Shown here in pieces: positions 3 to 13,664 of a stretch of 24,000 nucleotides of DNA. Source of the stretch: Novosphingobium pokkalii (GTDB lineage Bacteria > Pseudomonadota > Alphaproteobacteria > Sphingomonadales > Sphingomonadaceae); contig NZ_BMZP01000001.1 in assembly GCF_014652855.1 (NCBI RefSeq), positions 98,882 to 122,881 on the forward strand, given 5' to 3'. The translations under genes and the position numbers were made by a program. How positions within the stretch are numbered: position 1 is the first letter of the stretch; each line of letters opens with the position of its first letter. The notes under the pieces are model-generated. The model made no database searches. It saw only the letters and a program-made list of their open reading frames with translations, and had not been told where the DNA came from.

Positions 3-506
3 GCGCGGATCAAGGGCTTTGAAGTGGAAGTGGTGGCCGCCCCGGTGCGCGGCCTGACGGTGACCGGCTCGCTCGGCTATACCGACGCCAAGTATACCAG
101 CGTCGATGGCCCCGCGCAGGTGGCAACCTCCACGCTCCAGGCCGGGGTCTTTGCCGGTGCCACGCTGCCCAAGACGCCCAAGTGGAAGTTCAACGTCTCG
201 CCGCGCTACCAGGCCGATCTGGGCAGCCACGGCAGCCTGGTGTTCCTGGCCGACGTCACGTTCACCAGCACGATGAAGAACGACACCGAAGGCACGTTCC
301 TGCTCGATCGTCCGAGCACCACCGTGCTCAACGGCTCGATCACCTATCGCGCGCCCGGCGGGAACTGGGAACTGACCGCCGGCGGCACCAACCTGACCAA
401 CGAGCGCTATCTCACCACCGGCCAGGCGCAGCTTGCCGGCGGCCAGATCTACGGCACCTACAGCCGCCCGGCCGAATGGTATGCCCGCGTTGGCGTGAAG
501 TTCTGA
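3..506 (+). CDS. TonB-dependent receptor, C-terminal fragment (5' end lies outside the window)
   Basis: The frame is open from the window edge (ARIKGFEVEVVAAP...). The sequence has the alternating beta-strand character of an outer-membrane barrel (GSLGYTDAKY, ITYRAPGGNWELTAGGTNLTNERY). It ends ...WYARVGVKF with a terminal Phe, the same style as the full-length receptor at 13665-15983 (...VRGTLKF). Confidence 0.8.
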   Translation, partial: ARIKGFEVEVVAAPVRGLTVTGSLGYTDAKYTSVDGPAQVATSTLQAGVFAGATLPKTPKWKFNVSPRYQADLGSHGSLVFLADVTFTSTMKNDTEGTFLLDRPSTTVLNGSITYRAPGGNWELTAGGTNLTNERYLTTGQAQLAGGQIYGTYSRPAEWYARVGVKF

Positions 507-515
507 TGCAAGCGA

Positions 516-548
516 CCGGGCGGTGGCCTGTCCGCCGCCCGGTTTCCT
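516..548 (+). terminator. Candidate intrinsic terminator after the receptor gene
   Basis: CCGGGCGG (516-523) pairs perfectly with CCGCCCGG (535-542). Up to 3 further pairs are possible inside the loop. It is followed by only TTT then CCTCCC, so the U-tract is weak. Confidence 0.4.
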
Positions 549-580
549 CCCTTGAAGTCTCCCCCCCTTGGAGAGTGCCC

Positions 581-1114
581 ATGCCCGAAGCCGCCCACAC
601 CGAATTCTGGAAAGACATCAAGCCGGTGGAGAAAGTCTTCCGCGACGGTGGCTTGCCCGAAGTCTACATGCCCAAGATCGCCGAAGGCGACGAACGCTAT
701 TGGGTGCCGATCAGCGAGACGGTGTTTTCCAAGCCCGTGTGGATCAGCCCGGCCAAGAACATGTGGGCCGACGTGCTGATGAGCAAGCAGGCCGGCCTGG
801 TCAACCGCCACTACCACCCGCACCCGATCTGGGCCTACACGATCAGCGGCAAGTGGGCCTATCTCGAACATTCGTGGACGGCCACCGCCGGTGACTTCAT
901 CTATGAAACGCCTGGCGAGAGCCACACGCTGGTCTGCTATGAACACGAAGACCCGATGAAAGTGTTCTTCGTGGTGTCCGGCCCGCTGATGTGGCTGGAC
1001 GAGGCCGGCAACACCATCGGCCATTACGACGTGTTCGACTACATGGCCGCCGCCCGCGCGCACTATGCCGCTGTGGGTATCGGCGCCGATTACGTCGACA
1101 CCCTGATCCGCTGA
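581..1114 (+). CDS. Cupin protein 1, 2,4'-dihydroxyacetophenone dioxygenase-like (ChrR-like cupin), 177 aa
   Basis: ATG at 581 is preceded by GGAGAG (569-574). The longer 182-1114 ORF overlaps the receptor gene in another frame. Cupin motifs: HYHPH...YLEH...GDFIYETPGESHTLV. The size (177 aa) and motif layout match my recollection of the DAD family. No search was run. Confidence 0.75.
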   Translation: MPEAAHTEFWKDIKPVEKVFRDGGLPEVYMPKIAEGDERYWVPISETVFSKPVWISPAKNMWADVLMSKQAGLVNRHYHPHPIWAYTISGKWAYLEHSWTATAGDFIYETPGESHTLVCYEHEDPMKVFFVVSGPLMWLDEAGNTIGHYDVFDYMAAARAHYAAVGIGADYVDTLIR

Positions 1115-1133
1115 ACGAACGGAGCATCCCCCC

Positions 1134-1670
1134 ATGACCGTGATGACCGCCCCGCCGTCTGACAAGGCCGCGATTGTCGACGTGAAATTCCCGCACAAGG
1201 CGCTGGTCGAGCGCCTCAGCCCCGGCGGCCGCTATATCGATGCCGCCACCGACGTGGACAGCCCCTGGGTGCCGTTCGGCGATGGCGCGGCGATCAAGCA
1301 CCTCGCCTTCGATGTGCGGCAGAACCTGTTTTCCAACATCCTGTGGGTCAAGGGGCCCGGCGTGATCGGCACGCATTTCCACCGCGGCACGATCACCATG
1401 GTCTGCCTGGAAGGGTCGGTCCGCTATCTGGAATACGATTGGGTGGCAACGCCGGGCGGCCTGATCCTAGAAACGCCGGGCGAAAGCCACACCCTGGTCA
1501 CCGATCATCCGCAGGGCTGCAAGCTGTTCGGCTGGATGCAGGGGCCGATCGACTTCTACGATGCCGATGCCAACCTGGTCGATACCACTGACGTGTGGTG
1601 GTTCATCAACCACTACGAAACGCACTGCCGCGAGCACGGCATCGCGATCAATCCCAAGCTCTATCTGTAA
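1134..1670 (+). CDS. Cupin protein 2, DAD-like paralog, 178 aa
   Basis: ATG at 1134 with GGAG at 1121-1124, 19 nt after the upstream stop. Motifs: SPWVPFGD...GVIGTHFHRG...RYLEYDWVATPGGLILETPGESHTLV...VWWFINHYETHCREHGI. Clear paralog of the 1681-2214 gene. Confidence 0.8.
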   Translation: MTVMTAPPSDKAAIVDVKFPHKALVERLSPGGRYIDAATDVDSPWVPFGDGAAIKHLAFDVRQNLFSNILWVKGPGVIGTHFHRGTITMVCLEGSVRYLEYDWVATPGGLILETPGESHTLVTDHPQGCKLFGWMQGPIDFYDADANLVDTTDVWWFINHYETHCREHGIAINPKLYL

Positions 1671-1680
1671 GGCGCGCGCC

Positions 1681-2214
1681 ATGGCATCGATGAAAGCACC
1701 GCCGTCCTCGGCCTATGAAATCGTCCAGGTTCCCGAACTCTATGGCGATCTGATCCGCGCGCGCGGGGTGGAAGGCACCTATGTCGGCGCCGGGGAGGCG
1801 GAAAGCCCGTGGGTGCCGTTCGGCGACAACGCCGCCATCCGCCACCTGGCGTTCGACGTGCGCGAGAACATCTACGTCAACATCCTGTGGATCAAAGGCC
1901 CCGGCGTGATCGGCACGCACAAGCACCGGGGCAAAGTTTGGGCGATCGGGCTGGAAGGCTCGTTCCGCTACCTGGAATACGACTGGGTGTGCCGGCCGGG
2001 CGAATTCATCACCGAGACCCCCGGCACCGCGCATACCCTGGTGACCGACGATCCCCAGGGCATGAAGGCCCTGTTCCACATGCAGGGCGCCAACGAGTTC
2101 TTCGATGCCCAGGGCAACCACGTGGAAACGCTCGACGTGTGGTGGTTCATGAACCACTACGAAAGCCATTGCCGCGAGCACGGCATTCCCATCAACAAGC
2201 AGCTCTACCTCTGA
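1681..2214 (+). CDS. Cupin protein 3, DAD-like paralog, 177 aa
   Basis: ATG at 1681, 10 nt after the previous stop. The ORF-track start at 1561 would overlap the previous gene. Motifs: SPWVPFGD...GVIGTHKHRG...RYLEYDWVCRPGEFITETPGTAHTLV...VWWFMNHYESHCREHGI. By eye it is roughly two-thirds identical to cupin 2 over the C-terminal ~135 aa. Confidence 0.8.
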   Translation: MASMKAPPSSAYEIVQVPELYGDLIRARGVEGTYVGAGEAESPWVPFGDNAAIRHLAFDVRENIYVNILWIKGPGVIGTHKHRGKVWAIGLEGSFRYLEYDWVCRPGEFITETPGTAHTLVTDDPQGMKALFHMQGANEFFDAQGNHVETLDVWWFMNHYESHCREHGIPINKQLYL

Positions 2215-2230
2215 ACGGCCGAGCCGTGTG

Positions 2231-3340
2231 ATGCAGGCGCCCGTGCTTTCCAATCCGGTTCTGGCCATCCCGGTTCTGGCCGGCCCGCCACGCGGCACTT
2301 ATCTGCGGCGGTGCTGGTATGTCGTGGGCTGGGCCGACGCCCTTGGCGAGAGCCCGCAGGACCGGATTTTCCTGGAGGAACCGGTCGCCCTGTTTCGCGA
2401 CGAGGCGGGGGTGGCCCATGCCGTGGGCGGGCGCTGTCCGCATCGCTTCGCGCCGCTGGGGCAGGGCAGGGTGCTGGGGGGCGCCCTGGCCTGCCCTTAT
2501 CACGGACTGCGCTTTGATGCGCAGGGCGCCTGCGTTCACAATCCCCATCCCGGCGGCCAGCTTCCAGCCGCGCGCCTGCCGGTCTATCCGCTGGTCGAGC
2601 GGCACGGTCTGCTGTGGATCTGGATGGGAGAGGCCGAGGTAGCCGATCCCGCGCTGATCCCGGACTTTGCCTGGCTCACCGATCCGGCCTGGGCCGTGGT
2701 GCGCGGCGCCACGCGGGCCGAAGGACACTATGAACTCTACAGCGACAACATCCTCGATCTCAGCCATGCCAACTTCGTGCATCCGGCCCTTGTCGCCCGC
2801 GCCTTCACCGAAGGCGAGCGGCGCTTCTGGCAGGATGGCGAGACGGTCCACGCCGAATATGTCCGCCTGGACGATACCCTGTCCAACGGCATCGGCGCGA
2901 TGCTCGGCCGCGTCGGGCAGCCGCAGGATTTCTATGGCGAAGTGACCTGGCATGCGCCGGCCGTGCTGCGCTTCGACTATGTCGCAGGGCCGCCGGGCAC
3001 GCCGCGAGACGCTTGCACCCTGCTGCCCTCGCTTCATGCCTTCACCCCCGAAACGCCCGACACCACGCACTATGTCTGGGCCACCGGGCGCGATTTCGCG
3101 CTGGGCGATGCTGCCTTTTCGCAAGCCATGCAGGCCGCGCTGGAACATGCCTTTGAACGGGAGGACATGCCGATCATCCGCGACAGCCACCGTCTTATGC
3201 GCGGGGCGGATTTCTGGTCGCTCAAGCCGCTGGTGCTGGGCGGCGATGGTGGCGGCATCCGCGCGCGCCGCCTGCTGCAACGCCTGATCGCGCGCGAGCA
3301 GGGCGCCGCGCTGCCCCAAGACAACGAAGCCGACGCCTGA
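2231..3340 (+). CDS. Rieske [2Fe-2S] non-heme-iron oxygenase, VanA / phthalate-family (class IA) oxygenase component
   Basis: Rieske motif CPHRFAPLGQG...CPYHGLRF. Mononuclear-iron motif NILDLSHANFVHP (D-x2-H-x4-H). Family-typical N-terminus CWYVVGWADAL. Start is ATG 2231 or GTG 2228. No reductase gene is adjacent. Confidence 0.85.
   Translation: MQAPVLSNPVLAIPVLAGPPRGTYLRRCWYVVGWADALGESPQDRIFLEEPVALFRDEAGVAHAVGGRCPHRFAPLGQGRVLGGALACPYHGLRFDAQGACVHNPHPGGQLPAARLPVYPLVERHGLLWIWMGEAEVADPALIPDFAWLTDPAWAVVRGATRAEGHYELYSDNILDLSHANFVHPALVARAFTEGERRFWQDGETVHAEYVRLDDTLSNGIGAMLGRVGQPQDFYGEVTWHAPAVLRFDYVAGPPGTPRDACTLLPSLHAFTPETPDTTHYVWATGRDFALGDAAFSQAMQAALEHAFEREDMPIIRDSHRLMRGADFWSLKPLVLGGDGGGIRARRLLQRLIAREQGAALPQDNEADA
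2255..2281 (+). repeat. Exact 12-bp direct repeat CCGGTTCTGGCC x2 (15-nt period) in the 5' end of the Rieske gene
   Basis: Copies at 2255-2266 and 2270-2281 are identical and separated by ATC. They encode PVLA-I-PVLA in the N-terminal extension upstream of the conserved WYV region. Confidence 0.9.
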
Positions 3341-3366: not shown

Positions 3367-4206
3367 ATGGCCATTCTCGATCGTTTCAGCATCGCCGGGC
3401 GCAGTGCCTTTGTCACCGGCGCCGCCAGTGGCATCGGCCTCGCCTATGCCCAGGCCATGGCCGAAGGCGGCGCGGCCGTCACTCTCGCCGATGTCGACCA
3501 CGCCGGGGCCGAGCGCGAAGCCGCGCTGCTGCGCGAGGCCGGGCACGAGGCGCGCGCGGCGCACTGCGACGTATCCAGCTTCACCGCCGTGGCCGCCACG
3601 TTCGACGATCACGCGCAGGCCTATGGCGGGCTCGACATCTGCTTTGCCAACGCCGGGATCGATGCCGGCGCGGGCTTCTGGAATCCTGCCGGTCATCGCA
3701 ATCCCGATGGCCAGGTCGATACTTATGATCCCGCGCGCTGGGATCGCTCGATCGCGGTCAATCTCAATGGCGTGTTCTACACCGTGTCCAACGCGGTGCG
3801 GATCATGAAGCAACCCGGCCGCGCCAATGGCCGCAGCGGCGGCTCGATCATCTGCACCGCGTCCAACGCTGGGCTGGTGACAGAGCCGATCGTGGGCCTG
3901 CCCTATATGCCCGCCAAGGCCGGGGTGCTGCACATGGTCCGTGCGCTGGGCCTGGAACTGGCCGAATTCCGCATCCGCGTGAACGCCATCGCGCCCGGCC
4001 CTTTCGTGACCAACATCGGCGGCGGCTGGCTCAAGAAAGACCCGGTGGCCCGCGCCGCCTGGGACGCGATCGTGCCGCTGGGCAAACTGGCCGAAACCGA
4101 GCAGATCAAGCCGCTCGCCCTGCTGCTGGCCTCCGATGCGTCCGATTACATGACCGGCAGTCACGTGGTGATCGACGGCGGCATGATGCTGGGCAAGTAC
4201 CAGTAA
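3367..4206 (+). CDS. Short-chain dehydrogenase/reductase (classical SDR)
   Basis: RBS GGAGAGG lies upstream of ATG 3367. Motifs: TGAASGIGLA (TGxxxGxG), FANAGI, catalytic S...YMPAKAG (YxxxK) and a PG motif (IAPGPF). Confidence 0.9.
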   Translation: MAILDRFSIAGRSAFVTGAASGIGLAYAQAMAEGGAAVTLADVDHAGAEREAALLREAGHEARAAHCDVSSFTAVAATFDDHAQAYGGLDICFANAGIDAGAGFWNPAGHRNPDGQVDTYDPARWDRSIAVNLNGVFYTVSNAVRIMKQPGRANGRSGGSIICTASNAGLVTEPIVGLPYMPAKAGVLHMVRALGLELAEFRIRVNAIAPGPFVTNIGGGWLKKDPVARAAWDAIVPLGKLAETEQIKPLALLLASDASDYMTGSHVVIDGGMMLGKYQ

Positions 4207-5213
4207 TGCGCGCCGTGGTGATGCAGGGGCTGCACCGGCCCCTGGCGCTGGAAACCGTGCCCGATCCCACGCCCGGCGCGGGCGACATGGTGGTGCGCGT
4301 GGGCCGCTGCGGTATCTGCGGGTCTGATCTGCACATGACCGAGGATGCCGCCTATGGCCAGGGCGCGGGCTCGATTCTCGGCCATGAATTCGCCGGAGAA
4401 GTGGTCGCGCTGGGGCAGGGCGTCGAAGGCTGGCGCGTGGGCGATCGCGTGGCGGTCAGCCCACTCAAGAGTTGCGGGGCCTGCCCGGCCTGCCGCGCGG
4501 GCGAAGTGCAATGGTGCGCCGCTTTCGGCCTCCAGGGCGGTGGCTATGCCGAATATGCCCTGACCCGGCCCAACCAGTGCGTCCGCCTGCCGCACAGCGC
4601 GAGCCTGGCCGATGGCGCCATCATCGAGCCGCTGGCCGTGGCCTTGCACGGTATCGGCCTGTCTGGCCTGCGCCGGGGCGACAAGGTGCTGGTGCTCGGC
4701 GCCGGGCCGATCGGGCTGGCCGTGGCTTTCTGGGCGCGCCAGCATGGGGCGGGCCGGGTGGTGGTGCAGGATATCGCCCAATGGCAACGCGATCGCGCCC
4801 TGGCCATGGGCGCGCACGATTTCGTGGTGGCGCCCGACGATCCAGTCGGCACGGCGCAGCGCGCGCTGGGTGGCCCGGCTGATCTGGTGTTCGAGTGCGT
4901 CGGCGTCCCCGGCCTGATCGCGCAAGCCGTCGAGCAGTTGCGCAATCGCGGCACGGTGGTGCTGCTTGGCCTGTGCACCCGGCCCGATACGCTCAACACC
5001 TTTGCCATGCTGTCCAAGGAAGTGCGCCTCGTCACGTCCGCGTTCTTTACCACCGGGGAATACGCCGCTGCGCTCGACGCGCTCGATCGCGGCCTAACCG
5101 AACCGCGCCTTCTGGTCACCGATACCATCGCGCTGGCGCAGACGCCGGATGTGTTTGAAAGCCTGCGCCACCGCACCCACCAGTGCAAAGTCTTGATCGC
5201 GCCCGATGGCTAG
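4206..5213 (+). CDS. Zn-dependent alcohol dehydrogenase (MDR family)
   Basis: Its ATG overlaps the SDR stop (TAATG, 4204-4208). Catalytic-Zn motifs: CGICGSDLH and GHEFAGEV. Structural-Zn motif: CGACPACRAGEVQWC (C-x2-C-x2-C-x7-C). Rossmann motif: VLGAGPIGLA. Confidence 0.9.
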   Translation: MRAVVMQGLHRPLALETVPDPTPGAGDMVVRVGRCGICGSDLHMTEDAAYGQGAGSILGHEFAGEVVALGQGVEGWRVGDRVAVSPLKSCGACPACRAGEVQWCAAFGLQGGGYAEYALTRPNQCVRLPHSASLADGAIIEPLAVALHGIGLSGLRRGDKVLVLGAGPIGLAVAFWARQHGAGRVVVQDIAQWQRDRALAMGAHDFVVAPDDPVGTAQRALGGPADLVFECVGVPGLIAQAVEQLRNRGTVVLLGLCTRPDTLNTFAMLSKEVRLVTSAFFTTGEYAAALDALDRGLTEPRLLVTDTIALAQTPDVFESLRHRTHQCKVLIAPDG

Positions 5214-5944
5214 GCCTGGGCCAGGAACGCGCGCAGCAGGGTCTGGCCATCGGGCGTGTCGGCATTGGCGGCGCGCAGCGCGGGCACCGAAAAGCCGGCG
5301 CGGGTGATCGCCTCGGCATAGACGTCATAGCTGCCGGCCATGATCGCGGCGTCGAATTCGGGATGGAACTGCACGCCCCAGGCGCGCGGGGCATAGCGCA
5401 CCGCATGGTGCGGATCGTGCCCGCTGGTGGCCAGCACTTGCGCGCCTTCGGGCAGGGCCAGGACCGACTGGAAATGGAACACCATCATCCGCGCCACCGG
5501 GGGCAGCGCGGAAAACAGCGCGTCCTCCGCGCCCGCTGCGGTGCGGGCCACGTCCACCCCGCCAAACATCGCCCCGCGCGGATTGTCGGCCACCGTGCCG
5601 CCCAGGGCATGGGCCAGCAACTGGTGGCCAAAGCACACGCCCAGGATCGGCGCGCCCTGCGCCATGGCCGCGCGCGCCCAGGCGGCGGTGCGCTCGATCC
5701 ATGGGTGGCCGTCGGTCACCATGTCGATCGCCCCAGTGATGATCGTGGCGCGTACGTCTGCCGGATCGGGCAGCGGCTCGTCGCGATAGACTTTGACCGC
5801 CAGGATATCCTCGCGCGCCACGCCGCAGCCTGCGCCGAACCAGGCCAGTTCGTCGCCATGCACGGCGCAAGTGGCGGGCATGTCGTCATAGGATGTGGCG
5901 GGCTGGATGATGAGCAGGGGCTTGGGCAAGGAAAGGCCTTTCAC
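5210..5944 (-). CDS. Class-I glutamine amidotransferase-like protein (GuaA-type GATase domain, COG0518-like)
   Basis: Nucleophile elbow ILGVCFGHQLLAHALGG and the His/Glu of the triad in VQFHPEF. GTG start at 5944, 9 nt after the stop of the upstream fusion gene. No obvious SD, so translational coupling is possible. Confidence 0.8.
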   Translation of the reverse strand: MKGLSLPKPLLIIQPATSYDDMPATCAVHGDELAWFGAGCGVAREDILAVKVYRDEPLPDPADVRATIITGAIDMVTDGHPWIERTAAWARAAMAQGAPILGVCFGHQLLAHALGGTVADNPRGAMFGGVDVARTAAGAEDALFSALPPVARMMVFHFQSVLALPEGAQVLATSGHDPHHAVRYAPRAWGVQFHPEFDAAIMAGSYDVYAEAITRAGFSVPALRAANADTPDGQTLLRAFLAQA

Positions 5945-5953
5945 GGCTGGATG

Positions 5954-8227
5954 CTACAGGGTCTTGAGGCTTTTGCGCAGCGCCTCGACAAAGAACGCGA
6001 CTTCGCTTTCCGTCCAGGTGAGCGCAGGCCGCAGCTTGAATGCCGAACGGTGTGGGCCGGCCGTGCCCACCAGCACGCCGTTTTCGCGCATCGCCTCCAC
6101 CAGGCGCGCGGCCTGCGCGGTGGCCGGGGTGCGTGCGGCAGGATCACTGGTGAATTCCAGCCCGGTCAGCATGCCGCGCCCGCGCACATCACCGATCAGC
6201 GGAAAGGCCTGCGCCAGATCGCGCAACTGCGCGCGCAGCAGATCGCCGATGCGGTTGGCCCGCGTCAGCAGGTCCTCCCGCGCGATCACGTCGAGCACCG
6301 CCTGCCCGGCGGCACAGGCCACGCTGTTGCCGCCAAACGTGCTGAACACCTCGCACTGCGCGTAAAACGCCTGCCACAGCGCGCGGCGGGTGAGGACCAC
6401 GCCCAACGGATGGCCATTGCCCACCGGCTTGCCCAGGGTGATCAGGTCCACATGCTCCAGCCCTTGCACGGCAAAGCCCCAGAACTGCCCGAGCCGGCCA
6501 AGGCCCGCCTGCACTTCATCGGCAATCACCAGGGCTTCGCTCGCGCGGGCCGCCTTGGCCAGTCCTGCCATGTAGCCGGGCGGCTGGTCGGGCACGCCAT
6601 TGCTGGTCAGCGCCGTGTCCACCATCAGGAAGGCCGGGGCATGGCCGGCGCTGGCCAGGTGCGCCGTGGCTTCGGCCCAACTGGTCGCGGGATCGGGCGC
6701 GAACCCGCGATAGAGATCGGGGGCGGGCAGGCAGGCGACATGGGGCGGCGGCGCCTTGGTCAGCGGTGACAGTTCCACGGTGGCCGCCGTGATCCCGTGA
6801 TAGGCCCCTTCCATCACCACGGCGCCGTGCCGCCCGGTGGCAAAGCGGGCGATCTGCGCAGCCAGGTCGTTGGCCTCGCTGCCGGAATTGACGAAGGCGC
6901 AAACGTCGAACCCCGCCGGCGCCTGCGCCAGCAGGGCTTGCGCATAGGCGCCGGTACTGTCGGCCAGATAGCGCGTGTTGGCGTTGAGCGCGGCGGCCTG
7001 GCGGGCGATGGCGCGCACCACGGCGGGATGCGAATGGCCCACTTGCGGCACGTTGTTGTAGGCATCGAGATAGCGCGCGCCATCTGCCCCGATCAGCCAG
7101 GCCCCTTCGCCGCGCGTCAGGTGCAGCGGGCTCTGATAGAAATGCCAGACTTTGCCCATCGCTGCCTCGCGCTGGGCGATCAGTGCCGCCTGGGTCGCTG
7201 CCGGATCGGGCATGAGCGCTGGCACCGGAAAGCCGCAGGCACGGCGCAGCATGCGGGTCGCTTCCGTGCGCCCCACGGCCAGCAGCTTGCCCAGCATGGC
7301 GCCATGCTTGTGCCCGCCGCCCAGGTGCAGATCCGGCGCCGTGTCGGCCGGATCATGGCGCGCTGCCGCGACCAGCACGGTATTGACCAGGCGCAGGCAG
7401 CACAGATCGAACACCAGGTCGATTTCCGCCTCTTCCAGCGGGCACACCGCGTCAAAGCCTTGCGTCACGTCTGCCAGGATCGCCAGGGGATCGGCCTGCG
7501 CATCGGGAAAGCAATCGGCCGCCGTCGCCAGATCGGCCAGCAGCGGGCCGTGCAGCATGTCGCCAAAGTCGATCACGCCCACCACGCGCGTCGGCTCGGC
7601 GGGATCGACCAGCAAGTTGCCCATGTGTGCGTCCTGATGGACCACCTGGTGGCGGGTGCGCGCCAGGGCCGGATAGATGCGCGCGTCCGCCTCGGCCAGC
7701 ACCTGCGCGCATTGCGCGCGCAAGGCGTTGTCGGCAATGCGGGGCAGGGCAGGGGCCAGCGCCGTCACGCGGGCAAGATCCCAGTCGTGGCGATTGCTGC
7801 CCGCGTGCGGGTGGAAAAAGCCGCGCAGCGCCAGGCTCAGCCGCGCCACGAACCCGCCGATCGCCCGCCGCAGCCCGGCCGGATCGGCGCAGGCGGCAAA
7901 CACGTCCTGCGCGATGGCGCCATCCACATAGGTCAGGAGGCGCAGGATATGGTCCGTGCCGTCTTCGCCCCGGATCATGCTGCGCAATGCCCCGCCGCGT
8001 GTCTCCACCATGCGCGGCACGGGCAGCGCGGGATCGACCCGCGCGATATGGCCCAGCGCGCCGATCTGAAAATCCACCGTGCCCACTGCCTCGTCGCGGT
8101 GAGACAGTTTGACGATCACGCCGGGTCCATCGCCCGTGGTGAGATGCCAGGTCTGGTCCCGCTCCGATCGCAGCGGGCGCCAGTCGCCGCGCAGGCCCCA
8201 TTCCGCCAGCACCCGATCCTGCACCAT
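5954..8227 (-). CDS. Bifunctional fusion: N-terminal APH / hydroxylysine-kinase-like phosphotransferase plus C-terminal class-III PLP enzyme of the ETNPPL/PHYKPL (AGXT2L) type, 757 aa
   Basis: Kinase half (aa 1-~330): catalytic loop VVHQDAHMGNLLVD (H-x-D-x4-N) and VIDFGD. PLP half (aa ~345-757): NNVPQVGHSHP, NSGSEANDLA, AYHG, ADEVQAGLGRLG, TLGKPVGNGHP (Lys600 as Schiff-base candidate), FGGNSVACA, GPHR. GC3 becomes coding-like only downstream of ATG 8227. An alternative GTG at 8260 would add MTDGPPQFPLG. The rest of the 1283-aa ORF is antisense to the permease gene. Confidence 0.85.
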   Translation of the reverse strand: MVQDRVLAEWGLRGDWRPLRSERDQTWHLTTGDGPGVIVKLSHRDEAVGTVDFQIGALGHIARVDPALPVPRMVETRGGALRSMIRGEDGTDHILRLLTYVDGAIAQDVFAACADPAGLRRAIGGFVARLSLALRGFFHPHAGSNRHDWDLARVTALAPALPRIADNALRAQCAQVLAEADARIYPALARTRHQVVHQDAHMGNLLVDPAEPTRVVGVIDFGDMLHGPLLADLATAADCFPDAQADPLAILADVTQGFDAVCPLEEAEIDLVFDLCCLRLVNTVLVAAARHDPADTAPDLHLGGGHKHGAMLGKLLAVGRTEATRMLRRACGFPVPALMPDPAATQAALIAQREAAMGKVWHFYQSPLHLTRGEGAWLIGADGARYLDAYNNVPQVGHSHPAVVRAIARQAAALNANTRYLADSTGAYAQALLAQAPAGFDVCAFVNSGSEANDLAAQIARFATGRHGAVVMEGAYHGITAATVELSPLTKAPPPHVACLPAPDLYRGFAPDPATSWAEATAHLASAGHAPAFLMVDTALTSNGVPDQPPGYMAGLAKAARASEALVIADEVQAGLGRLGQFWGFAVQGLEHVDLITLGKPVGNGHPLGVVLTRRALWQAFYAQCEVFSTFGGNSVACAAGQAVLDVIAREDLLTRANRIGDLLRAQLRDLAQAFPLIGDVRGRGMLTGLEFTSDPAARTPATAQAARLVEAMRENGVLVGTAGPHRSAFKLRPALTWTESEVAFFVEALRKSLKTL

Positions 8228-8392
8228 GCCAAGGGGAAACTGTGGTGGCCCGTCCGTCACGCAATACCCCGCTGCTGCCTGTCGCTGCTGGGCATAGCGC
8301 CGCGCCAACTGAGATCGCAAGTGCAATGTGGTTGCGGGGCGCGGGCTGGGCGGCCATACCACTGCCCAACGTTTCCGGGGAATTCCTTGCAT

Positions 8393-9688
8393 ATGGCCAA
8401 CCCATCCTCTGCCAACCAGGCGCAGGCGCTCACCGACGGGCAGCGCCTGCGCGCGATCCTGGCCGGATCGGCCGGAAACCTGATCGAGTGGTACGATTTC
8501 TACATCTACGCCTTCACCTCGCTCTATTTTTCGGCGGAATTCTTCCCGGAAAGCGATGCGCTGGTGCAGGTCATGGCCACCAGCGGCATCTTTGCCGTGG
8601 GCTTCCTGCTGCGGCCCATCGGCGGCTGGTATTTCGGCCGCTTTGCCGATCGCCACGGGCGGCAACGGGCGATGGTCGTCTCGGTATTGATGATGGGGCT
8701 GGGCGCACTGCTGATCGCGGCGCTTCCCACTTATCGCCAGGTGGGCGTGGTGGCGCCGGCGCTGCTGCTGCTGGGCCGGATGATCCAGGGCTTTTCCACC
8801 GGCGGCCAATATGGCACCGCCGCCACCTATCTCAGCGAGATTGCCGGGCGCGGGCGGCGCGGGTTCTGGTCTTCGTTCCAGTATGTCACGCTGATCGGCG
8901 GGCAGTTGCTGGCCACGCTGGTGATCCTGGCGCTGCAACACGGCCTGGGCGAAGCGGCGATGAAGGCCTATGGCTGGCGCATCGGCTTTGTCCTCGGCGC
9001 AGGCGGGGCAGCGCTGATCCTGCTGCTCTCGCGGCACATGCACGAAACCGGGCAGGCGGCGCAGGGCCGGGCAGAGGCGGGCTCGCTGCGCGAACTGTTC
9101 GCCCACCACACGCGGCCGTTCCTGCTGGTCATGGCGCTCACGGCCGGGGGTAGCCTCTCGTTCTACACGTTCACCACCTACATGCAGAAGTACCTTGTGC
9201 TTACAGTGGGCATGACCAAACCCGATGCCACCCTGCTGATGACCGGCGTGCTGGTCGTGTTCATGCTGATCCAGCCAATGATGGGCGCCTTGTCCGATCG
9301 GATCGGGCGGCGCGCCAACATCCTGGTGTTCGCCGCGCTGTCGATGACGCTGACCGTGCCGATCTTCACGGCATTGGCCAGCGCGCCCGGCGTGTGGGCG
9401 GCAGCCGCCCTGGTGTTGGCGGGCCTGGTGATCAACAGTTTCTACACCTCGGTCAGCGGGCTGTTCAAGGCCGAGCTGTTCCCCGTCCATGTGCGCGCGC
9501 TGGGCGTCGGCCTGGCCTATGGCGTGGGCAATGCGCTGTTTGGCGGCACGGCCGAGAACGTCGCCCTGGCGTTCAAGCAGGCCGGCCACGAAAGCGGGTT
9601 CTATTGGTATGTCACCGCGCTTGCCGCCGTGTCGCTGGTCGCGGGTCTCATGCTGAAGGACACGCGGCGGGATGATCCGCTGGGGTGA
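8393..9688 (+). CDS. kgtP: MFS metabolite:H+ symporter, alpha-ketoglutarate permease (KgtP)-like, 431 aa
   Basis: Strong recalled similarity along the whole length to E. coli KgtP: NLIEWYDFYIYAFTSLYF, GFLLRPIGGWYFGRFADRHGR, GGQYGTAATYLSEIA, FQYVTLIGGQLLA, FYTFTTYMQKYLV, MLIQPMMGALSDRIGRR, KAELFPVHVRALGVG. The length also matches (KgtP 432 aa). The substrate is not proven. Confidence 0.85.
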   Translation: MANPSSANQAQALTDGQRLRAILAGSAGNLIEWYDFYIYAFTSLYFSAEFFPESDALVQVMATSGIFAVGFLLRPIGGWYFGRFADRHGRQRAMVVSVLMMGLGALLIAALPTYRQVGVVAPALLLLGRMIQGFSTGGQYGTAATYLSEIAGRGRRGFWSSFQYVTLIGGQLLATLVILALQHGLGEAAMKAYGWRIGFVLGAGGAALILLLSRHMHETGQAAQGRAEAGSLRELFAHHTRPFLLVMALTAGGSLSFYTFTTYMQKYLVLTVGMTKPDATLLMTGVLVVFMLIQPMMGALSDRIGRRANILVFAALSMTLTVPIFTALASAPGVWAAAALVLAGLVINSFYTSVSGLFKAELFPVHVRALGVGLAYGVGNALFGGTAENVALAFKQAGHESGFYWYVTALAAVSLVAGLMLKDTRRDDPLG

Positions 9689-10571
9689 GGCCCCGCGCCA
9701 TGGCAACCGGCAGTTCGGCGGCCAGCAAGGCGATGAAATCGGTGACCTTGCGCGGCACCAGGCGGCGGCGCGGGTGCATCGCCCAGACGGCTTCCTCGGT
9801 GGCACGAAAAGGGTTCAGCACCGGTTCCAGCCGCCCTTGCGCCAGGGCCTGCGCGGCATAGAAATCGGGCACCTGGCAGATGCCCAGGCCCGCCACCGCC
9901 GCTGCCGTCACTGCCGGCCCGTTGTTGCAGCGCCAGCGCCCCTGCGGCTGATAGGTCGTTTCCGCGCGGTTGCGCCGGAAATGCCAGACCTCGGCCGATC
10001 CCACCAGGCAATCGTGCGCATCCAGATCCTCGATCTCCTGCGGGCGCCCGCGCCGCGCGAGATATTCCGGGGCAGCGCAGGTCACCAGGTTGCGCCCGCC
10101 CAGCCGGTGCGCGGCGAGGCGCAGGTCTCCCTGCGGGCCTGTGCGGATCGCCACGTCGAACCCTTCGGCAACGATATCGACCACGCGATTGCTGAAATCC
10201 AGCGTCACGTCGAGCGAGGGGTTGGCCATGGCATGGCGCAGCGCCAGCGGCGCGATGAAGTATTCCCCCAGCGCCACGGGGCAGGTGATGCGCAACGATC
10301 CGCGCAGCCCGGTATCGCCGCTGGCCACGGCCAGCGCGGCGTCGCGCTCGTCGATGATCCGCCGTCCGCGCTCGGACAGTTCGCGCCCCGCCGCCGTCAG
10401 CGAGACCTGCCGCGTGGTGCGGTGGAGCAGCGTGGCCCCGGTGCGGTGCTCAAGCTGCGCGATAGCCCGGCTGACGTGCGAGGTGGAGCGGCGCAACTTG
10501 CGCGCCGCCGCCGCGAAAGTGCCGTTTTCGGCAATGGCGACAAGTTCTTCCAGACCGGTCCAGTCCGACAT
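9648..10571 (-). CDS. LysR-family transcriptional regulator, 307 aa
   Basis: ATG at 10571. N-terminal wHTH: LEELVAIAENGTFAAAARKLRRSTSHVSRAIAQLE. Typical LysR substrate-binding domain. Divergent from the formaldehyde dehydrogenase gene. Its 3' end overlaps the permease 3' end by 41 nt. Confidence 0.9.
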   Translation of the reverse strand: MSDWTGLEELVAIAENGTFAAAARKLRRSTSHVSRAIAQLEHRTGATLLHRTTRQVSLTAAGRELSERGRRIIDERDAALAVASGDTGLRGSLRITCPVALGEYFIAPLALRHAMANPSLDVTLDFSNRVVDIVAEGFDVAIRTGPQGDLRLAAHRLGGRNLVTCAAPEYLARRGRPQEIEDLDAHDCLVGSAEVWHFRRNRAETTYQPQGRWRCNNGPAVTAAAVAGLGICQVPDFYAAQALAQGRLEPVLNPFRATEEAVWAMHPRRRLVPRKVTDFIALLAAELPVAMARGLTPADHPAACPSA

Positions 10572-10671: not shown

Positions 10672-11784
<1,113 letters not shown>

Positions 11785-11805
11785 TCATCCCATCGGATGG
11801 ACGGG

Positions 11806-11845
11806 AAAAGGGGCCGGTCCGGCAAGGACACGGCCCCTTTTTCTT
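11806..11845. terminator. Bidirectional intrinsic terminator between convergent adhC and Rieske-2
   Basis: GGGGCCG (11810-11816) pairs with CGGCCCC (11831-11837). An inner GTCC/GGAC extension is possible. An A-run (GAAAAG) lies 5' and TTTTTCTT lies 3', so it can act on both strands. Confidence 0.75.
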
Positions 11846-11850
11846 GGGCA

Positions 11851-12909
11851 TCAGGCAGCCAGTGCCTCGGCGCGGATCTGCGCCTCCAGCAGACGCCGCA
11901 CCTGTAGCGCGCCATTGTCCACCCGCGCGCTCACTTCGCGGGGCAGGGGCGCGTCGCCGCGCAGAACGGTCTCGATCGCGCTGATCGCGTCCACGTCCTC
12001 GGGCTGGATGCGCGTGCCCATGGCCAGGTTCATCGCGCCCAGCGCCGGGTTGTCGTGCCCGAAATCGCGCGCCGTCGCCACGAAGTAGTGCAGGCGGCCG
12101 GGCGCGGCAGGGGTGATCATGTGAATGAAGTTCTGCGTGCCCAGCGCTTTCCCGCTAGCATGGTCGCTGATCGTGCCGCCGGTGCGGATCAGGCACGGCC
12201 CCATGTATTGCGCGTCGAATTCCTGGTCCACCAGCGCGTCCTGATCGGGAAATTGCGCCTTGATCAAGGGATTGGGTGGAATGCCCACGGCCTTGCGCGC
12301 CACGGTCAGCCCACCGCTGCGCGCTTCCACCGTCACCGGTAGAGCCGCCACCTTTTCGCCCGAGGGAATGGTGGTCGCGTGGATGAAAGTCACATGGCTC
12401 AGGTCGAGCAGGTTTTCGATGAGCAGGGTATAGCGCGCTTCCACCGTGGCCACGGGGTGGATTTCCACTGTCCAGCCTGGCGCATCCAGCCCGATCGCCG
12501 CAAGGTCGGGCAGCAGGGCAGGATCGGCGGCGCTCTCCTCGCCGGTCCAGATCCACACCACGCCACCGCGCTCCACCACCGGATAGCGGCGCAGGGTGGC
12601 ATGCTGCGGCACGCCGTTCTGGCTCGGTACGCGCTGGCATGCGCCATCCGGCCCGAAAGTGAAGCCGTGATAGCCGCACTGCACACTGTCGCCCACCAGA
12701 CGCCCCTTTTCCAGGGGAAACGCCCGGTGCGGGCAAATGCCCGAGACGGCCACGGCCGTGCCGTCTTCCTTGCGGTAGAGCAGCACGCGCTCGCCCAGGA
12801 TGTCGCGCGCCACCAGGTTGCGGCTGACTTCCGTAGCGGTGGCTGCCGCCCACCACTGGCGGCGCGGATAGGGTTGCTCGGTGGTCAATGGATAGCTGGC
12901 ATGGGCCAT
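11851..12909 (-). CDS. Rieske [2Fe-2S] non-heme-iron oxygenase, VanA / phthalate-family, second copy, 352 aa
   Basis: Rieske motif CPHRAFPLEKG...CGYHGFTF. Iron motif NLLDLSHVTFIHA. Paralogous to the 2231-3340 gene (for example ERGGVVWIWTGEESAADPALLPD versus ERHGLLWIWMGEAEVADPALIPD). ATG at 12909 has GGGAGA about 8 nt upstream and is preferred over GTG at 12951. Confidence 0.85.
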   Translation of the reverse strand: MAHASYPLTTEQPYPRRQWWAAATATEVSRNLVARDILGERVLLYRKEDGTAVAVSGICPHRAFPLEKGRLVGDSVQCGYHGFTFGPDGACQRVPSQNGVPQHATLRRYPVVERGGVVWIWTGEESAADPALLPDLAAIGLDAPGWTVEIHPVATVEARYTLLIENLLDLSHVTFIHATTIPSGEKVAALPVTVEARSGGLTVARKAVGIPPNPLIKAQFPDQDALVDQEFDAQYMGPCLIRTGGTISDHASGKALGTQNFIHMITPAAPGRLHYFVATARDFGHDNPALGAMNLAMGTRIQPEDVDAISAIETVLRGDAPLPREVSARVDNGALQVRRLLEAQIRAEALAA

Positions 12910-12941
12910 GGCCCGATCTCCCGAAATTGTTCTGCGCCATG

Positions 12942-12979: not shown

Positions 12980-12995
12980 GTCGGGTCCGCCGGGC

Positions 12996-13658: not shown

Positions 13659-13664
13659 TCCTGT

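What the first reader, a model, noticed from the sequence alone, without database searches (positions are those of the whole stretch)
5210..8227. Kinase / PLP-enzyme fusion (hydroxylysine-kinase-like plus ETNPPL/PHYKPL-like) co-transcribed with a class-I glutamine amidotransferase
What the sequence shows:
- One 757-aa protein joins an APH-type phosphotransferase domain to a class-III PLP domain.
- The kinase half has HQDAHMGN and IDFGD.
- The PLP half has NNV.QVGHSHP, NSGSEANDLA, ADEVQ.G.GR.G, GKPVGNGHP, GGNSV.CA and GPHR. These match my recollection of the animal ammoniophospholyases ETNPPL/PHYKPL (AGXT2L1/2) better than ordinary transaminases.
- A GATase-like gene follows 9 nt downstream.

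Established knowledge:
- In animals, hydroxylysine kinase (HYKK/AGPHD1) and PHYKPL act in sequence. The amino alcohol is phosphorylated, then PLP-dependent elimination yields a carbonyl, NH3 and Pi.
- Bacterial fusion or adjacency of such homologues has been noted. To my knowledge the substrates and roles of the bacterial fusions remain uncharacterised.

Inference:
- This is a self-contained phosphorylate-then-eliminate module for an unknown amino alcohol or hydroxy-amino acid.
- The GATase-like partner has an intact Cys-His-Glu triad. It might process a gamma-glutamyl or amide-conjugated precursor. That combination is not described.
Basis: partly seen in the sequence, partly recalled or inferred. 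Interest (0 to 1): 0.7.

Follow-up and report, generated by a model that had tools for sequence, protein, structure and literature searches.

The report
Kinase–phospholyase fusion with amidase-like partner
A Novosphingobium-type bacterium encodes one protein that probably phosphorylates an unknown amino alcohol and then splits it into a carbonyl compound, ammonia and phosphate; this protein belongs to a common, already noticed family, but its conserved glutamine-amidotransferase-like partner gene is, as far as I could find, undescribed.

Summary
**Observation:** confirmed. On the minus strand, 5954..8227 encodes a 757-aa protein joining an APH domain to a class-III PLP domain. The true start is probably the GTG at 8260, giving 768 aa. 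A 244-aa class-I GATase-like gene (5210..5944) follows after 9 nt.

**PLP half:** it belongs with the phospholyases, not ordinary transaminases.
- Its best solved relatives are Arthrobacter A1RDF1 and human ETNPPL, about 115 bits ahead of the next hit.
- It falls in a clade with 94% bootstrap support.
- It carries nine clade-specific residues.

**Kinase half:** it has intact catalytic motifs and folds like small-molecule hydroxyl kinases, including a mycobacterial aminopropanol kinase. Specific likeness to hydroxylysine kinase could not be tested.

**How common:** the fusion is widespread (more than 586 metagenome relatives), so the fusion alone is ordinary.

**GATase link:** it is real but narrow.
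- It marks one monophyletic clade of fusions (81% bootstrap).
- It is absent from all 80 more distant loci.
- The same GATase subfamily also follows an unrelated, unfused kinase plus lyase pair.

**Most likely function (not shown):** an amide or gamma-glutamyl hydrolase frees an amino alcohol, which is then phosphorylated and eliminated. The substrate is unknown, and no enzyme activity was tested.

The parts
5954..8227 (-). Fusion gene: APH-type kinase plus class-III PLP phospholyase-like enzyme. It is 757 aa from the ATG at 8227. The probable true start is the GTG at 8260, giving 768 aa.
   Evidence: ORF and translation. Pfam PF01636 plus PF00202. There are 4422 database relatives at E<=1e-20, and the top 120 all carry both domains. 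The upstream codons align with the conserved N-terminus of homologues.
7472..8182 (-). Kinase (APH) domain, residues 16-252. Candidate nucleotide-binding Lys40; catalytic loop His197-x-Asp199-x4-Asn204; metal site Asp220-Phe-Gly-Asp223.
   Evidence: Pfam E 5.4e-28. The motif residues are invariant in 26 homologues, and K40 is K in 23 and R in 3. AlphaFold model pLDDT 92.5. Nearest solved folds are homoserine kinase II, N-acetylhexosamine kinase, amicoumacin kinase and aminopropanol kinase 6ef6.
5969..7129 (-). PLP domain, residues 367-753. Schiff-base Lys600 lies in TLGKPVGNGHP and PLP-binding Asp570 lies in ADEVQ. Phospholyase-clade signature residues: Y364, N391, N392, R419, Y420, W583, P601, F621, K731.
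   Evidence: Pfam E 7.5e-68. PDB best hits are 5g4i at 3.4e-88 and 6tor at 1.9e-86, against 1.7e-52 for the next. Clade bootstrap 94%. Signature residues.
5945..5953 (-). A 9-nt junction (CATCCAGCC) between the fusion's TAG and the GATase GTG.
   Evidence: Sequence. No promoter-like or terminator-like site was found on this strand between the genes. Homologous pairs have gaps of -4 to 46 nt.
5210..5944 (-). Standalone class-I glutamine-amidotransferase / peptidase-C26-like gene, 244 aa, triad Cys104-His194-Glu196. It is the proposed amide or gamma-glutamyl hydrolase.
   Evidence: Pfam PF00117 and PF07722. NF006562 at 250.6 bits, above the 205 cut-off. The triad is invariant in 56 homologues. 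It stays next to the fusion in Novosphingobium, a Cellvibrionaceae MAG and metagenome contigs.
8228..8392 (.). Divergent intergenic region between the fusion and the MFS transporter gene. It is the presumed promoter and regulatory region, but nothing was detected by consensus scan.
   Evidence: Gene coordinates. The sigma-70 consensus scan found no site.
8393..9688 (+). Divergently transcribed MFS metabolite:H+ symporter, KgtP-like. It may be the importer for the pathway; this is an inference.
   Evidence: Pfam Sugar_tr and MFS_1. NCBIfam PRK10406 scores 542 bits against a 550 cut-off, and TIGR00883 (metabolite/H+ symporter) is the next match. Syntenic at about 90% identity in three Novosphingobium genomes.
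9648..10571 (-). LysR-family regulator, about 307 aa from the Met at 10571. It may regulate the divergent pair; this is an inference.
   Evidence: Pfam HTH_1 plus LysR_substrate. Syntenic in L001-L003. A LysR gene also lies next to a GATase-less fusion in Mesorhizobium.

Best explanation
This is a compact catabolic module for a compound with neighbouring amino and hydroxyl groups (a vicinal amino alcohol or hydroxy-amino acid).

1. **Step 1 (inferred).** The GATase-like protein acts as a Cys-His-Glu amide hydrolase, not as part of a synthase. It releases the free amine from a gamma-glutamyl or other amide conjugate.
2. **Step 2 (inferred from family and intact motifs).** The N-terminal APH domain uses ATP or GTP to phosphorylate the hydroxyl group.
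3. **Step 3 (inferred from clade membership).** The C-terminal PLP domain binds the amine as an external aldimine and eliminates phosphate. It releases an enamine that hydrolyses to an aldehyde or ketone plus NH3.

The net result is a carbonyl compound, NH3 and Pi (plus glutamate, if the conjugate is gamma-glutamyl). Fusing the two domains keeps the phospho-intermediate between two active sites on one polypeptide. The LysR gene and the KgtP-like MFS gene next door are the likely regulator and importer. The substrate is not identified.
For: **Architecture and motifs**
- Domain architecture and catalytic motifs are confirmed.

**PLP half**
- Best solved relatives are the two characterised phospholyases: 5g4i/A1RDF1 at 299.6 bits and human ETNPPL 6tor at 293.9 bits. 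The next hit, a caprolactam racemase, scores 182 bits.
- In a neighbour-joining tree, all fusion PLP halves plus A1RDF1 and ETNPPL form a clade with 94% bootstrap support, separate from a racemase and two ordinary class-III transaminases.
- Nine positions are invariant in that clade, differ in the outgroups, and are all present here.

**Kinase half**
- The model is confident (pLDDT 92.5).
- Its nearest solved folds are small-molecule hydroxyl kinases, including the microcompartment aminopropanol kinase 6ef6.
- The characterised phospholyase A1RDF1 itself lies beside an APH-type kinase, a permease and an aldehyde dehydrogenase on plasmid pTC2. This shows the kinase plus lyase pairing also exists unfused.

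**GATase coupling**
- The gap is 9 nt, with no terminator between the genes.
- The pair is kept in three Novosphingobium genomes, a Cellvibrionaceae MAG and several metagenome contigs.
- GATase-linked fusions form one clade (81% bootstrap). Every member of known context has the GATase.
- None of the 80 more distant metagenome loci has the GATase, nor do three members of the sister clade.
- GATases 61-63% identical to this one follow an unfused class-III PLP enzyme plus APH kinase. That pair is only 36-37% and about 28-32% (partial alignments) identical to the halves here, and is closer to the A1RDF1 system.
- Overall, 12 of 15 determined contexts of GATases at least 50% identical include a kinase/lyase.

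**Hydrolase reading of the GATase**
- There is no synthase partner in the operon.
- More distant relatives sit with glutamine-synthetase-like genes, a GMC oxidoreductase and an aldehyde dehydrogenase.
- PauD2, IpuF-type proteins and GGP1 are standalone class-I GATases that hydrolyse gamma-glutamyl amides. One of them frees an amino alcohol (PMC8274714, PMC6776027, PMC12958103).
Against: - No activity of any of the three domains was measured, for this protein or for any fused homologue that I could find.
- Within the phospholyase clade, only ETNPPL, PHYKPL and A1RDF1 have known activities. Other reaction types inside the clade cannot be excluded.
- Most fusions (all 80 distant loci) work without the GATase, so it is not needed for the core chemistry.
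- No gamma-glutamyl synthetase, and no obvious source of a conjugate, is encoded in the 24-kb window.
- Two members of the GATase clade lack any kinase/lyase neighbour.
- The junction shows no clear ribosome-binding site.
- The KgtP-like transporter suggests an anionic substrate, which fits ethanolamine-type amino alcohols poorly.
Confidence: 0.6

Rival explanations
1. The fusion alone is the functional unit. It would be, for example, an ethanolamine or 1-amino-2-propanol kinase/phospholyase that yields acetaldehyde or propionaldehyde, an alternative to B12-dependent ethanolamine ammonia-lyase. The GATase gene would then be only a neighbour with an unrelated role, such as general gamma-glutamyl or glutamine turnover.
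For: - Most fusions lack the GATase (0 of 80 metagenome loci).
- Neighbours of fusions are heterogeneous.
- A1RDF1 acts on phosphoethanolamine, and its locus has no GATase.
- Some GATase clade members have no kinase/lyase neighbour.
- PRK09065-type GATases pair with other partners elsewhere, such as an Asp/Glu racemase.
Against: - The pairing is tight (-4 to 46 nt gaps).
- It is confined to one monophyletic fusion clade yet spans Alpha- and Gammaproteobacteria.
- The same GATase subfamily is independently attached to a distantly related, unfused kinase/lyase pair. That is hard to explain by chance adjacency.
Confidence: 0.22
2. The PLP domain is a genuine aminotransferase acting on a phosphorylated or otherwise modified terminal amine. 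The kinase would make or recycle its substrate, so the module would be biosynthetic or salvage rather than an elimination pathway.
For: - Public annotations call it an aminotransferase.
- Class-III enzymes are mostly transaminases (PMC8154272).
- Only three members of the clade have been assayed.
Against: - Scores are about 115 bits higher to the two solved phospholyases than to any transaminase, racemase or decarboxylase.
- The clade has 94% bootstrap support.
- All nine clade-specific residues are present. At position 731, Lys aligns with an Arg in one of the two transaminase outgroup sequences.
- No scanned equivalog transaminase model reaches its cut-off.
Confidence: 0.1
3. The module inactivates an amino-alcohol-containing antibiotic or toxin. 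An APH-type kinase would phosphorylate it, as in aminoglycoside or amicoumacin resistance, and the lyase and amidase would then destroy it.
For: Structural neighbours of the kinase half include amicoumacin kinase and aminoglycoside phosphotransferases.
Against: - Sequence similarity to resistance kinases is marginal: APH(3')-V scores E 0.0018, far below its cut-off.
- The better-supported relatives are metabolic kinases.
- The locus sits among catabolic genes with a metabolite symporter and a LysR regulator.
- The family is very widespread in free-living soil and marine bacteria.
Confidence: 0.04

Closest known systems
Animal hydroxylysine kinase (HYKK/AGPHD1) with 5-phosphohydroxy-L-lysine phospho-lyase (PHYKPL/AGXT2L2), and ethanolamine-phosphate phospho-lyase (ETNPPL/AGXT2L1)
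   Same: - Both use the same two-step logic: phosphorylate an amino alcohol, then eliminate phosphate and ammonia with PLP.
- The PLP half is 38% identical to human ETNPPL over 410 residues and shares all clade-specific residues.
- Papers in the library confirm the lyase activities, and that they were found by comparative genomics (PMC9283133, PMC5714238).
- From my own memory of Veiga-da-Cunha et al. 2012 (J Biol Chem 287:7246; not held in the library), bacterial bi- and tri-functional kinase fusions were the clue to that discovery.
   Different: - Here the two activities sit on one polypeptide, the substrate is unknown, and a GATase-like third gene is attached.
- Likeness of the kinase half to HYKK specifically was not testable.
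- In my tree, ETNPPL groups with other, more distant bacterial fusions (94% bootstrap), not with this clade.
Arthrobacter (Paenarthrobacter) aurescens TC1 phospholyase A1RDF1 (PDB 5g4i) and its locus on plasmid pTC2
   Same: - It is a bacterial, structurally solved phospholyase of the same clade, 40% identical to the PLP half.
- Its gene lies beside an APH-type 'homoserine kinase', an amino-acid permease and an aldehyde dehydrogenase. That is the same kinase plus lyase module.
   Different: - The genes are unfused and divergently arranged.
- The kinase belongs to a different APH lineage (26% identity, E 2.6e-6).
- There is no GATase.
- The regulator is TetR rather than LysR.
(S)-1-amino-2-propanol kinase of the mycobacterial RMM / aminoacetone-utilisation microcompartment (PDB 6ef6)
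   Same: - It is the only solved structure found by sequence search with the kinase half (E 1.6e-4).
- It is a top-10 structural neighbour (E 3.2e-11).
- It is an amino-alcohol kinase whose product is thought to go to a class-III phospholyase. That last point is from my own knowledge of Mallette and Kimber 2018, cited.
   Different: - Similarity is distant (18% identity over the structural alignment).
- It is encoded as a separate gene within a microcompartment locus.
- No microcompartment shell genes occur in this window.
Tri-functional relatives (NCBIfam PRK06148 / PRK06149; APH - peptidase M23 - class-III PLP enzyme, about 1000 aa)
   Same: - These are the best NCBIfam matches for both halves. 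The kinase half matches model positions 16-344 and the PLP half matches 583-1009 of PRK06148.
- Examples L080 and L097 carry all three Pfam domains.
   Different: - This protein lacks the roughly 240-residue M23 insert.
- It scores far below those models' cut-offs (633 bits against 1128).
- The tri-functional proteins fall in a different branch, with ETNPPL.
Gamma-glutamylation pathways for amines (Puu/Pau polyamine pathway with PauD2; Ipu isopropylamine pathway with IpuF)
   Same: - A standalone class-I GATase-type protein acts as a hydrolase that removes a gamma-glutamyl group. In the Ipu pathway it frees the amino alcohol L-alaninol (PMC8274714, PMC6776027).
- Relatives of this GATase at 48-50% identity lie next to glutamine-synthetase-like genes.
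   Different: - No gamma-glutamyl-amine synthetase, oxidoreductase or aldehyde dehydrogenase of such a pathway is in this operon.
- Orthology to PauD2 or IpuF was not tested.
- Here the partner is a kinase/phospholyase, a pairing I did not find described.

Membership tests
APH / phosphotransferase enzyme family (PF01636), protein-kinase-like small-molecule kinases | Significant match to the family profile | tested here: met
   PF01636 at 98.8 bits against a 23.2-bit cut-off, residues 16-252.
APH / phosphotransferase enzyme family (PF01636), protein-kinase-like small-molecule kinases | Catalytic loop HxDxxxxN, DFG-like metal-binding motif, and nucleotide-binding lysine | tested here: met
   H197, D199, N204 and D220-F-G-D223 are invariant in 26 homologues. 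K40 is K in 23 and R in 3.
APH / phosphotransferase enzyme family (PF01636), protein-kinase-like small-molecule kinases | Bilobal kinase-like fold | tested here: met
   AlphaFold model pLDDT 92.5, pTM 0.90. Foldseek against the PDB: 2ppq, 4wh2, 6sv5 and 6ef6 at E 2e-12 to 3e-11, with TM-scores 0.65-0.71 normalised to the query.
APH / phosphotransferase enzyme family (PF01636), protein-kinase-like small-molecule kinases | ATP- or GTP-dependent phosphorylation of a hydroxyl group | not testable with these tools
   This needs an enzyme assay.
Hydroxylysine kinase (HYKK/AGPHD1) orthologues | Closer to HYKK than to other APH-family kinases | not testable with these tools
   No HYKK chain was found in the PDB searches. 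The AlphaFold-database library was unavailable. No HYKK sequence could be fetched.
Class-III (fold-type I) PLP-dependent enzymes, PF00202 | Profile match, Schiff-base lysine and PLP-binding aspartate | tested here: met
   PF00202 at 229.5 bits. K600 and D570 are invariant and align with the corresponding residues of 5g4i and 6tor.
Ammoniophospholyase subgroup (ETNPPL, PHYKPL, A1RDF1) | Sequence closer to characterised phospholyases than to transaminases, racemases or decarboxylases | tested here: met
   299.6 and 293.9 bits to 5g4i and 6tor, against 182 or fewer for all other solved class-III enzymes. Clade bootstrap 94%.
Ammoniophospholyase subgroup (ETNPPL, PHYKPL, A1RDF1) | Clade-specific residues shared by ETNPPL and A1RDF1 | tested here: met
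   Y364, N391, N392, R419, Y420, W583, P601, F621 and K731 are conserved in at least 43 of 44 clade members and absent from the 3 outgroups; all are present here. This signature was derived here, not taken from a published definition.
Ammoniophospholyase subgroup (ETNPPL, PHYKPL, A1RDF1) | Releases Pi and NH3 by 1,2-elimination instead of transaminating | not testable with these tools
   This needs an enzyme assay.
Class-I glutamine amidotransferase / peptidase C26 fold | Profile match and Cys-His-Glu triad | tested here: met
   PF00117 E 6.7e-19 and PF07722 E 4.5e-11. NF006562 at 250.6 bits, above the 205 cut-off. C104, H194 and E196 are invariant in 56 homologues.
Two-component glutamine-dependent amidotransferase (glutaminase subunit plus synthase subunit) | A cognate synthase or acceptor subunit or domain encoded with it | tested here: not met
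   The protein is a standalone 244-aa domain. No synthase-type partner was seen in this operon or in homologous operons.
Gamma-glutamyl-amide hydrolases of GATase type (PauD2, IpuF, GGP1-like) | Hydrolysis of a gamma-glutamyl amide or isopeptide bond; association with gamma-glutamyl-amine synthetase genes | tested here: inconclusive
   GGP1 (9k7i) is among the best solved relatives, but only at E 2.9e-11. Relatives at 48-50% identity lie beside Gln-synt_C genes, but none is in this window. Activity was not testable.

The most novel reading that the evidence does not exclude
The GATase-linked clade may define an undescribed three-step 'deconjugate, phosphorylate, eliminate' route for amide-linked hydroxy-amino compounds.

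**Proposed steps**
1. A class-I GATase-like hydrolase frees the amine from a gamma-glutamyl or carboxamide precursor.
2. The kinase activates the neighbouring hydroxyl group.
3. The lyase yields a semialdehyde that feeds C5/C6 dicarboxylate metabolism.

**Possible substrates**
The precursor could be a 5-hydroxylysine-derived compound such as 5-amino-4-hydroxyvalerate or its amide, giving glutarate semialdehyde.

**Weak hints**
- Succinate-glutarate-CoA-transferase-like genes lie in two related operons.
- One of those operons also has an acyl-CoA dehydrogenase.
- Other neighbours include an ArgE-like deacylase and amino-acid transporters.
- The window itself has a KgtP-like symporter.
Probability: 0.2. 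Interest if true: 0.6.

Novelty: new variant of a known kind. Interest (0 to 1): 0.42.

Why it matters
**What is already known**
- Kinase plus phospholyase is an established way to degrade amino alcohols without vitamin B12.
- Examples are animal hydroxylysine and phosphoethanolamine breakdown, the Arthrobacter enzyme, and the mycobacterial aminopropanol pathway.

**What remains open**
- The bacterial fused enzymes are among the commoner 'aminotransferase' annotations in soil and marine genomes, yet I found none with an assigned substrate.
- Public annotation calls them aminotransferases, which is probably the wrong reaction class.

**What the GATase link offers**
- The conserved GATase-like partner gives a concrete, testable handle. 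It suggests that, in this clade, the true nutrient is an amide or gamma-glutamyl conjugate.
- It also picks out a small, tractable set of operons for substrate screening.

**If confirmed**
- It would add a new entry route into amino-alcohol catabolism.
- It would add a new role for standalone class-I GATases.

The fusion alone is not surprising to a specialist.

Tried and rejected
- **Key papers.** Looked for Veiga-da-Cunha 2012 and Mallette and Kimber 2018; neither is held in the library.
- **Literature searches.** Ten searches found no study of a bacterial kinase-phospholyase fusion or of a GATase partner.
- **HYKK test.** Tried to test likeness to hydroxylysine kinase through the AlphaFold-database fold library, but it was unavailable.
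- **Neighbour census.** Looked for a universal neighbour across 80 fusion loci. The neighbours (redoxin, ETF, MFS, Mo-oxidoreductase, SDR, class-III transaminase) are clade-specific and give no common substrate clue.
- **Zn-ADH and SDR.** Considered the convergent Zn-ADH and SDR genes (3367-5213) as pathway members. I rejected them as unproven. In N. rhizosphaerae a ThuA-like gene is inserted between them and the GATase, and they adjoin an aromatic-catabolism cluster. However, an unrelated SDR directly precedes the fusion in two other GATase-linked operons.
- **Plasmid search.** Searched the plasmid collection for close GATase relatives. Only hits at 45% identity or less turned up, in other contexts such as LysR plus Asp/Glu racemase.
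- **Tree run.** A first tree run timed out and was redone with a faster script.
- **Promoter and terminator scans.** They gave nothing usable.

Full report
**1. What is in the sequence**

The window is GC-rich (about 62-71% across 1-kb windows) and full of spurious ORFs. The real genes of the finding are on the minus strand.

- From the ATG at 8227 to the TAG at 5954 there is a 757-aa protein. Nine nucleotides later a GTG at 5944 opens a 244-aa ORF that ends at 5210.
- Pfam gives APH (PF01636, residues 16-252, E 5.4e-28) and Aminotran_3 (PF00202, residues 367-753, E 7.5e-68) for the large protein. It gives GATase and Peptidase_C26 for the small one.
- The small protein also passes the curated cut-off of NCBIfam NF006562/PRK09065, 'glutamine amidotransferase'.
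The in-frame upstream residues VTDGPPQFPLG align with a conserved N-terminal block (LPxFSL) of homologues that are 16-30 residues longer, and a GTG lies at 8260.
- The closest public relatives are from Novosphingobium. One public call of this gene, from N. pokkalii, is a 479-aa frameshifted chimera of two reading frames.

**2. The PLP half is a phospholyase-type enzyme, not an ordinary transaminase**

- Against all PDB sequences, the two best matches are the only solved ammoniophospholyases. Arthrobacter A1RDF1 (5g4i) scores 299.6 bits and human ETNPPL (6tor) scores 293.9 bits.
- The next hit, a caprolactam racemase, scores 182 bits. True transaminases score 144 bits or lower.
- I built a neighbour-joining tree of 47 sequences over 413 columns with 200 bootstraps. 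All fusion PLP halves, A1RDF1, ETNPPL and two unfused bacterial homologues form a clade with 94% support. The outgroup is the racemase and two ordinary class-III transaminases taken from neighbouring genes.
- Nine positions are invariant in at least 43 of 44 members of that clade and differ in all three outgroups: Y364, N391, N392, R419, Y420, W583, P601, F621 and K731. The window protein has all nine.
- The catalytic Lys600 and the PLP-binding Asp570 are invariant.

**3. The kinase half**

- The catalytic loop H197-x-D199-x4-N204 and the metal site D220-F-G-D223 are invariant in 26 fusions that are 45-82% identical. Lys40 is K in 23 and R in 3.
- An AlphaFold model built on 17 sequences is confident (pLDDT 92.5, pTM 0.90).
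- Its nearest solved folds are small-molecule hydroxyl kinases. These are type II homoserine kinase 2ppq, N-acetylhexosamine 1-kinase, amicoumacin kinase, and 6ef6, titled 'microcompartment-associated aminopropanol kinase'. 6ef6 is also the only PDB hit by sequence (E 1.6e-4).
- I could not test whether it is specifically like hydroxylysine kinase. No HYKK structure appeared in the PDB searches, and the AlphaFold-database library was not available.

**4. How common is the fusion?**

It is very common.

- The protein search returned 4422 relatives at E<=1e-20. The top 120 all carry both domains and are 44-95% identical (one further entry is a 99%-identical partial call). They come from Alpha-, Gamma- and Deltaproteobacteria, Chloroflexota and others.
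- A capped metagenome scan returned 586 confirmed relatives out of 600 rows.
- NCBIfam holds models for about 1000-aa relatives, PRK06148 and PRK06149. In these, a peptidase-M23 domain sits between the kinase and the PLP domain. I confirmed that architecture in two loci.
- From my own memory of Veiga-da-Cunha et al. 2012 (not held in the library), such bacterial bi- and tri-functional proteins were the clue that led to the identification of human HYKK, PHYKPL and ETNPPL. Held papers confirm only that the discovery was 'comparative genomics-assisted' and that the two human proteins are lyases.
- The characterised bacterial enzyme A1RDF1 sits on plasmid pTC2 beside an APH-type 'homoserine kinase', a permease and an aldehyde dehydrogenase. 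That is the same module, unfused.
- So the fusion is a new member of a known, though biochemically neglected, kind.

**5. The GATase link**

This is the part that adds something.

- The gene pair is kept, with the divergent MFS and LysR genes, in three Novosphingobium genomes.
- The pair alone is kept in a Cellvibrionaceae MAG (fusion 50% and GATase 53% identical). It is also kept in metagenome contigs whose fusions are 63% and 54% identical.
- Matching contig lengths link four more fusion/GATase pairs in the two protein searches.
- None of the 80 metagenome loci has the GATase; these fusions are 51% identical or less. Three further fusions at 47-50% identity also lack it.
- In the tree, the GATase-linked fusions form one clade of 12 with 81% bootstrap support. 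The three GATase-less cases fall in its sister clade (84%).
- Two contigs carry GATases 61-63% identical to this one directly after an unfused class-III enzyme and an APH kinase. The operon there is TonB receptor, amidohydrolase, PLP enzyme, kinase, GATase.
- Those two proteins are only 36-37% and about 28-32% (partial alignments) identical to the halves here. They are closer to the A1RDF1 system.
- Their GATases nevertheless nest inside the clade of fusion-linked GATases (84% bootstrap).
- The same GATase subfamily is therefore attached to two separate kinase/lyase lineages, which argues for a functional link rather than chance adjacency.
- Of 15 GATases at least 50% identical whose context I could determine, 12 have a kinase/lyase next door.

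**6. What the GATase-like protein probably does**

- It is a standalone domain with an invariant Cys104-His194-Glu196 triad. No synthase partner is present in any of the operons.
- Just outside the linked clade, relatives lie beside glutamine-synthetase-like genes. In Dasania the neighbour is Gln-synt_C. In Sphingobium amiense the set is Gln-synt_C, GMC oxidoreductase, GATase and aldehyde dehydrogenase. That is the layout of gamma-glutamylation pathways for amines.
- Published work describes standalone class-I GATases as gamma-glutamyl amide hydrolases:
  - PauD2 in polyamine catabolism (PMC8274714);
  - an IpuF-type amidotransferase that frees the amino alcohol L-alaninol from gamma-glutamyl-L-alaninol (PMC6776027);
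  - plant GGP1, together with the general statement that this fold is specific for a gamma-glutamyl P1 residue (PMC12958103).
- I therefore favour a hydrolase that releases the free amine for the kinase and lyase. This step is an inference.
- Other amide hydrolases recur in the linked operons: an ArgE-type M20 deacylase, Amidohydro_3 and peptidase S58. This fits a conjugated substrate.

**7. Substrate**

The substrate is not identified. There are only weak hints.

- Two operons of the linked clade carry a CoA-transferase whose best model is succinate-glutarate CoA-transferase (573-587 bits, below the 750 cut-off). One of them adds an acyl-CoA dehydrogenase and a polar amino-acid ABC transporter.
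- The window's divergent MFS gene is KgtP-like (542 bits against a 550 cut-off).
- These hints point loosely to an acidic C5/C6 hydroxy-amino compound rather than plain ethanolamine. They are not evidence of function.
- The rest of the window encodes aromatic O-demethylase-type oxygenases, cupins, formaldehyde dehydrogenase, a TonB receptor and PutA. It encodes no gamma-glutamyl synthetase.

**8. Co-transcription**

- Support comes only from the 9-nt gap, from equally short or overlapping junctions in homologues (-4 to 46 nt), and from the absence of consensus promoter or terminator sites between the genes.
- No clear Shine-Dalgarno sequence precedes the GATase start.

**9. Verdict**

- The fusion is ordinary and its kind is known.
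- The conserved, clade-specific GATase-like partner is a modest new variant that I did not find described in the held literature.
- Interest is moderate (0.42): not surprising to a specialist, but a clean and testable lead on a large family that is probably mis-annotated as aminotransferases.

Noticed in passing
window 5210-5213: The convergent GATase gene (minus strand) and Zn-dependent alcohol dehydrogenase gene (4206-5213, plus strand) end on the same palindromic CTAG, so their stop codons overlap by 4 nt. No intergenic space is left for terminators. In related Novosphingobium genomes the gap is 17 nt, or a ThuA-like gene is inserted.
   Followed up: partly
window 8228-8260: The fusion's start is probably the GTG at 8260, not the ATG at 8227. 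The 11 upstream codons align with a conserved N-terminal block of homologues, yet automated calls of the 95%-identical relative also use the shorter form.
   Followed up: partly
protein P0024 (Novosphingobium pokkalii record), equivalent to window ~6800-8200: The public 479-aa protein that is 99% identical to part of this gene is a chimera. Its first ~130 residues come from another reading frame (the same as the spurious window ORF 7452-8405, minus strand), and its last 14 residues are also out of frame. This implies frameshifts or sequencing errors in that record.
   Followed up: partly
window 182-3340 and 10672-15983: The flanks look like an aromatic (methoxy-aromatic) catabolic neighbourhood. 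They hold two VanA-type Rieske oxygenases (2228-3340 plus strand; 11851-12951 minus strand) and three cupin ORFs. They also hold a class-III/glutathione-type formaldehyde dehydrogenase-like Zn-ADH (10672-11784), a TetR regulator and a TonB-dependent receptor (13665-15983).
   Followed up: partly
window 17558-21205 (minus strand): A full-length PutA gene (DNA-binding domain, proline dehydrogenase and aldehyde dehydrogenase, 1215 aa). A LysR gene lies at 16092-17024 and a ChpT-like histidine phosphotransferase ORF at 22841-23647.
   Followed up: no
window 9648-9688: The MFS transporter gene (plus strand) and the LysR gene (minus strand) converge and overlap by 41 nt. The listed 382-aa LysR ORF is over-extended; the HTH position implies a start at the Met at 10571.
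   Followed up: partly
L080 6001-8973; L097 6001-8958: Tri-functional relatives carry a peptidase-M23 domain between the kinase and the PLP domain. In the tree they group with human ETNPPL and other distant bacterial fusions (94% bootstrap) rather than with the window's clade. The role of the M23 domain is unexplained.
   Followed up: partly
L108 (Ralstonia solanacearum megaplasmid) and L109 (Burkholderia pyrrocinia plasmid), locus positions ~4000-6540: GATase relatives at 42-43% identity are paired with an aspartate/glutamate racemase gene and a divergent LysR gene. This is a different, recurrent partnership for the PRK09065 family.
   Followed up: no
L101 233-7726; L104 385-7723: An operon of TonB-dependent receptor, Amidohydro_3, class-III PLP enzyme, APH kinase and GATase. 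The outer-membrane receptor and extra amidohydrolase suggest a larger conjugated substrate.
   Followed up: partly
plasmid collection search: Homologues of the A1RDF1 phospholyase occur on 387 plasmid records, including 118 Sinorhizobium, 50 Rhizobium, 42 Klebsiella and one E. coli clinical plasmid (NZ_CP107722.1, 48% identity). Their contexts were not examined.
   Followed up: no
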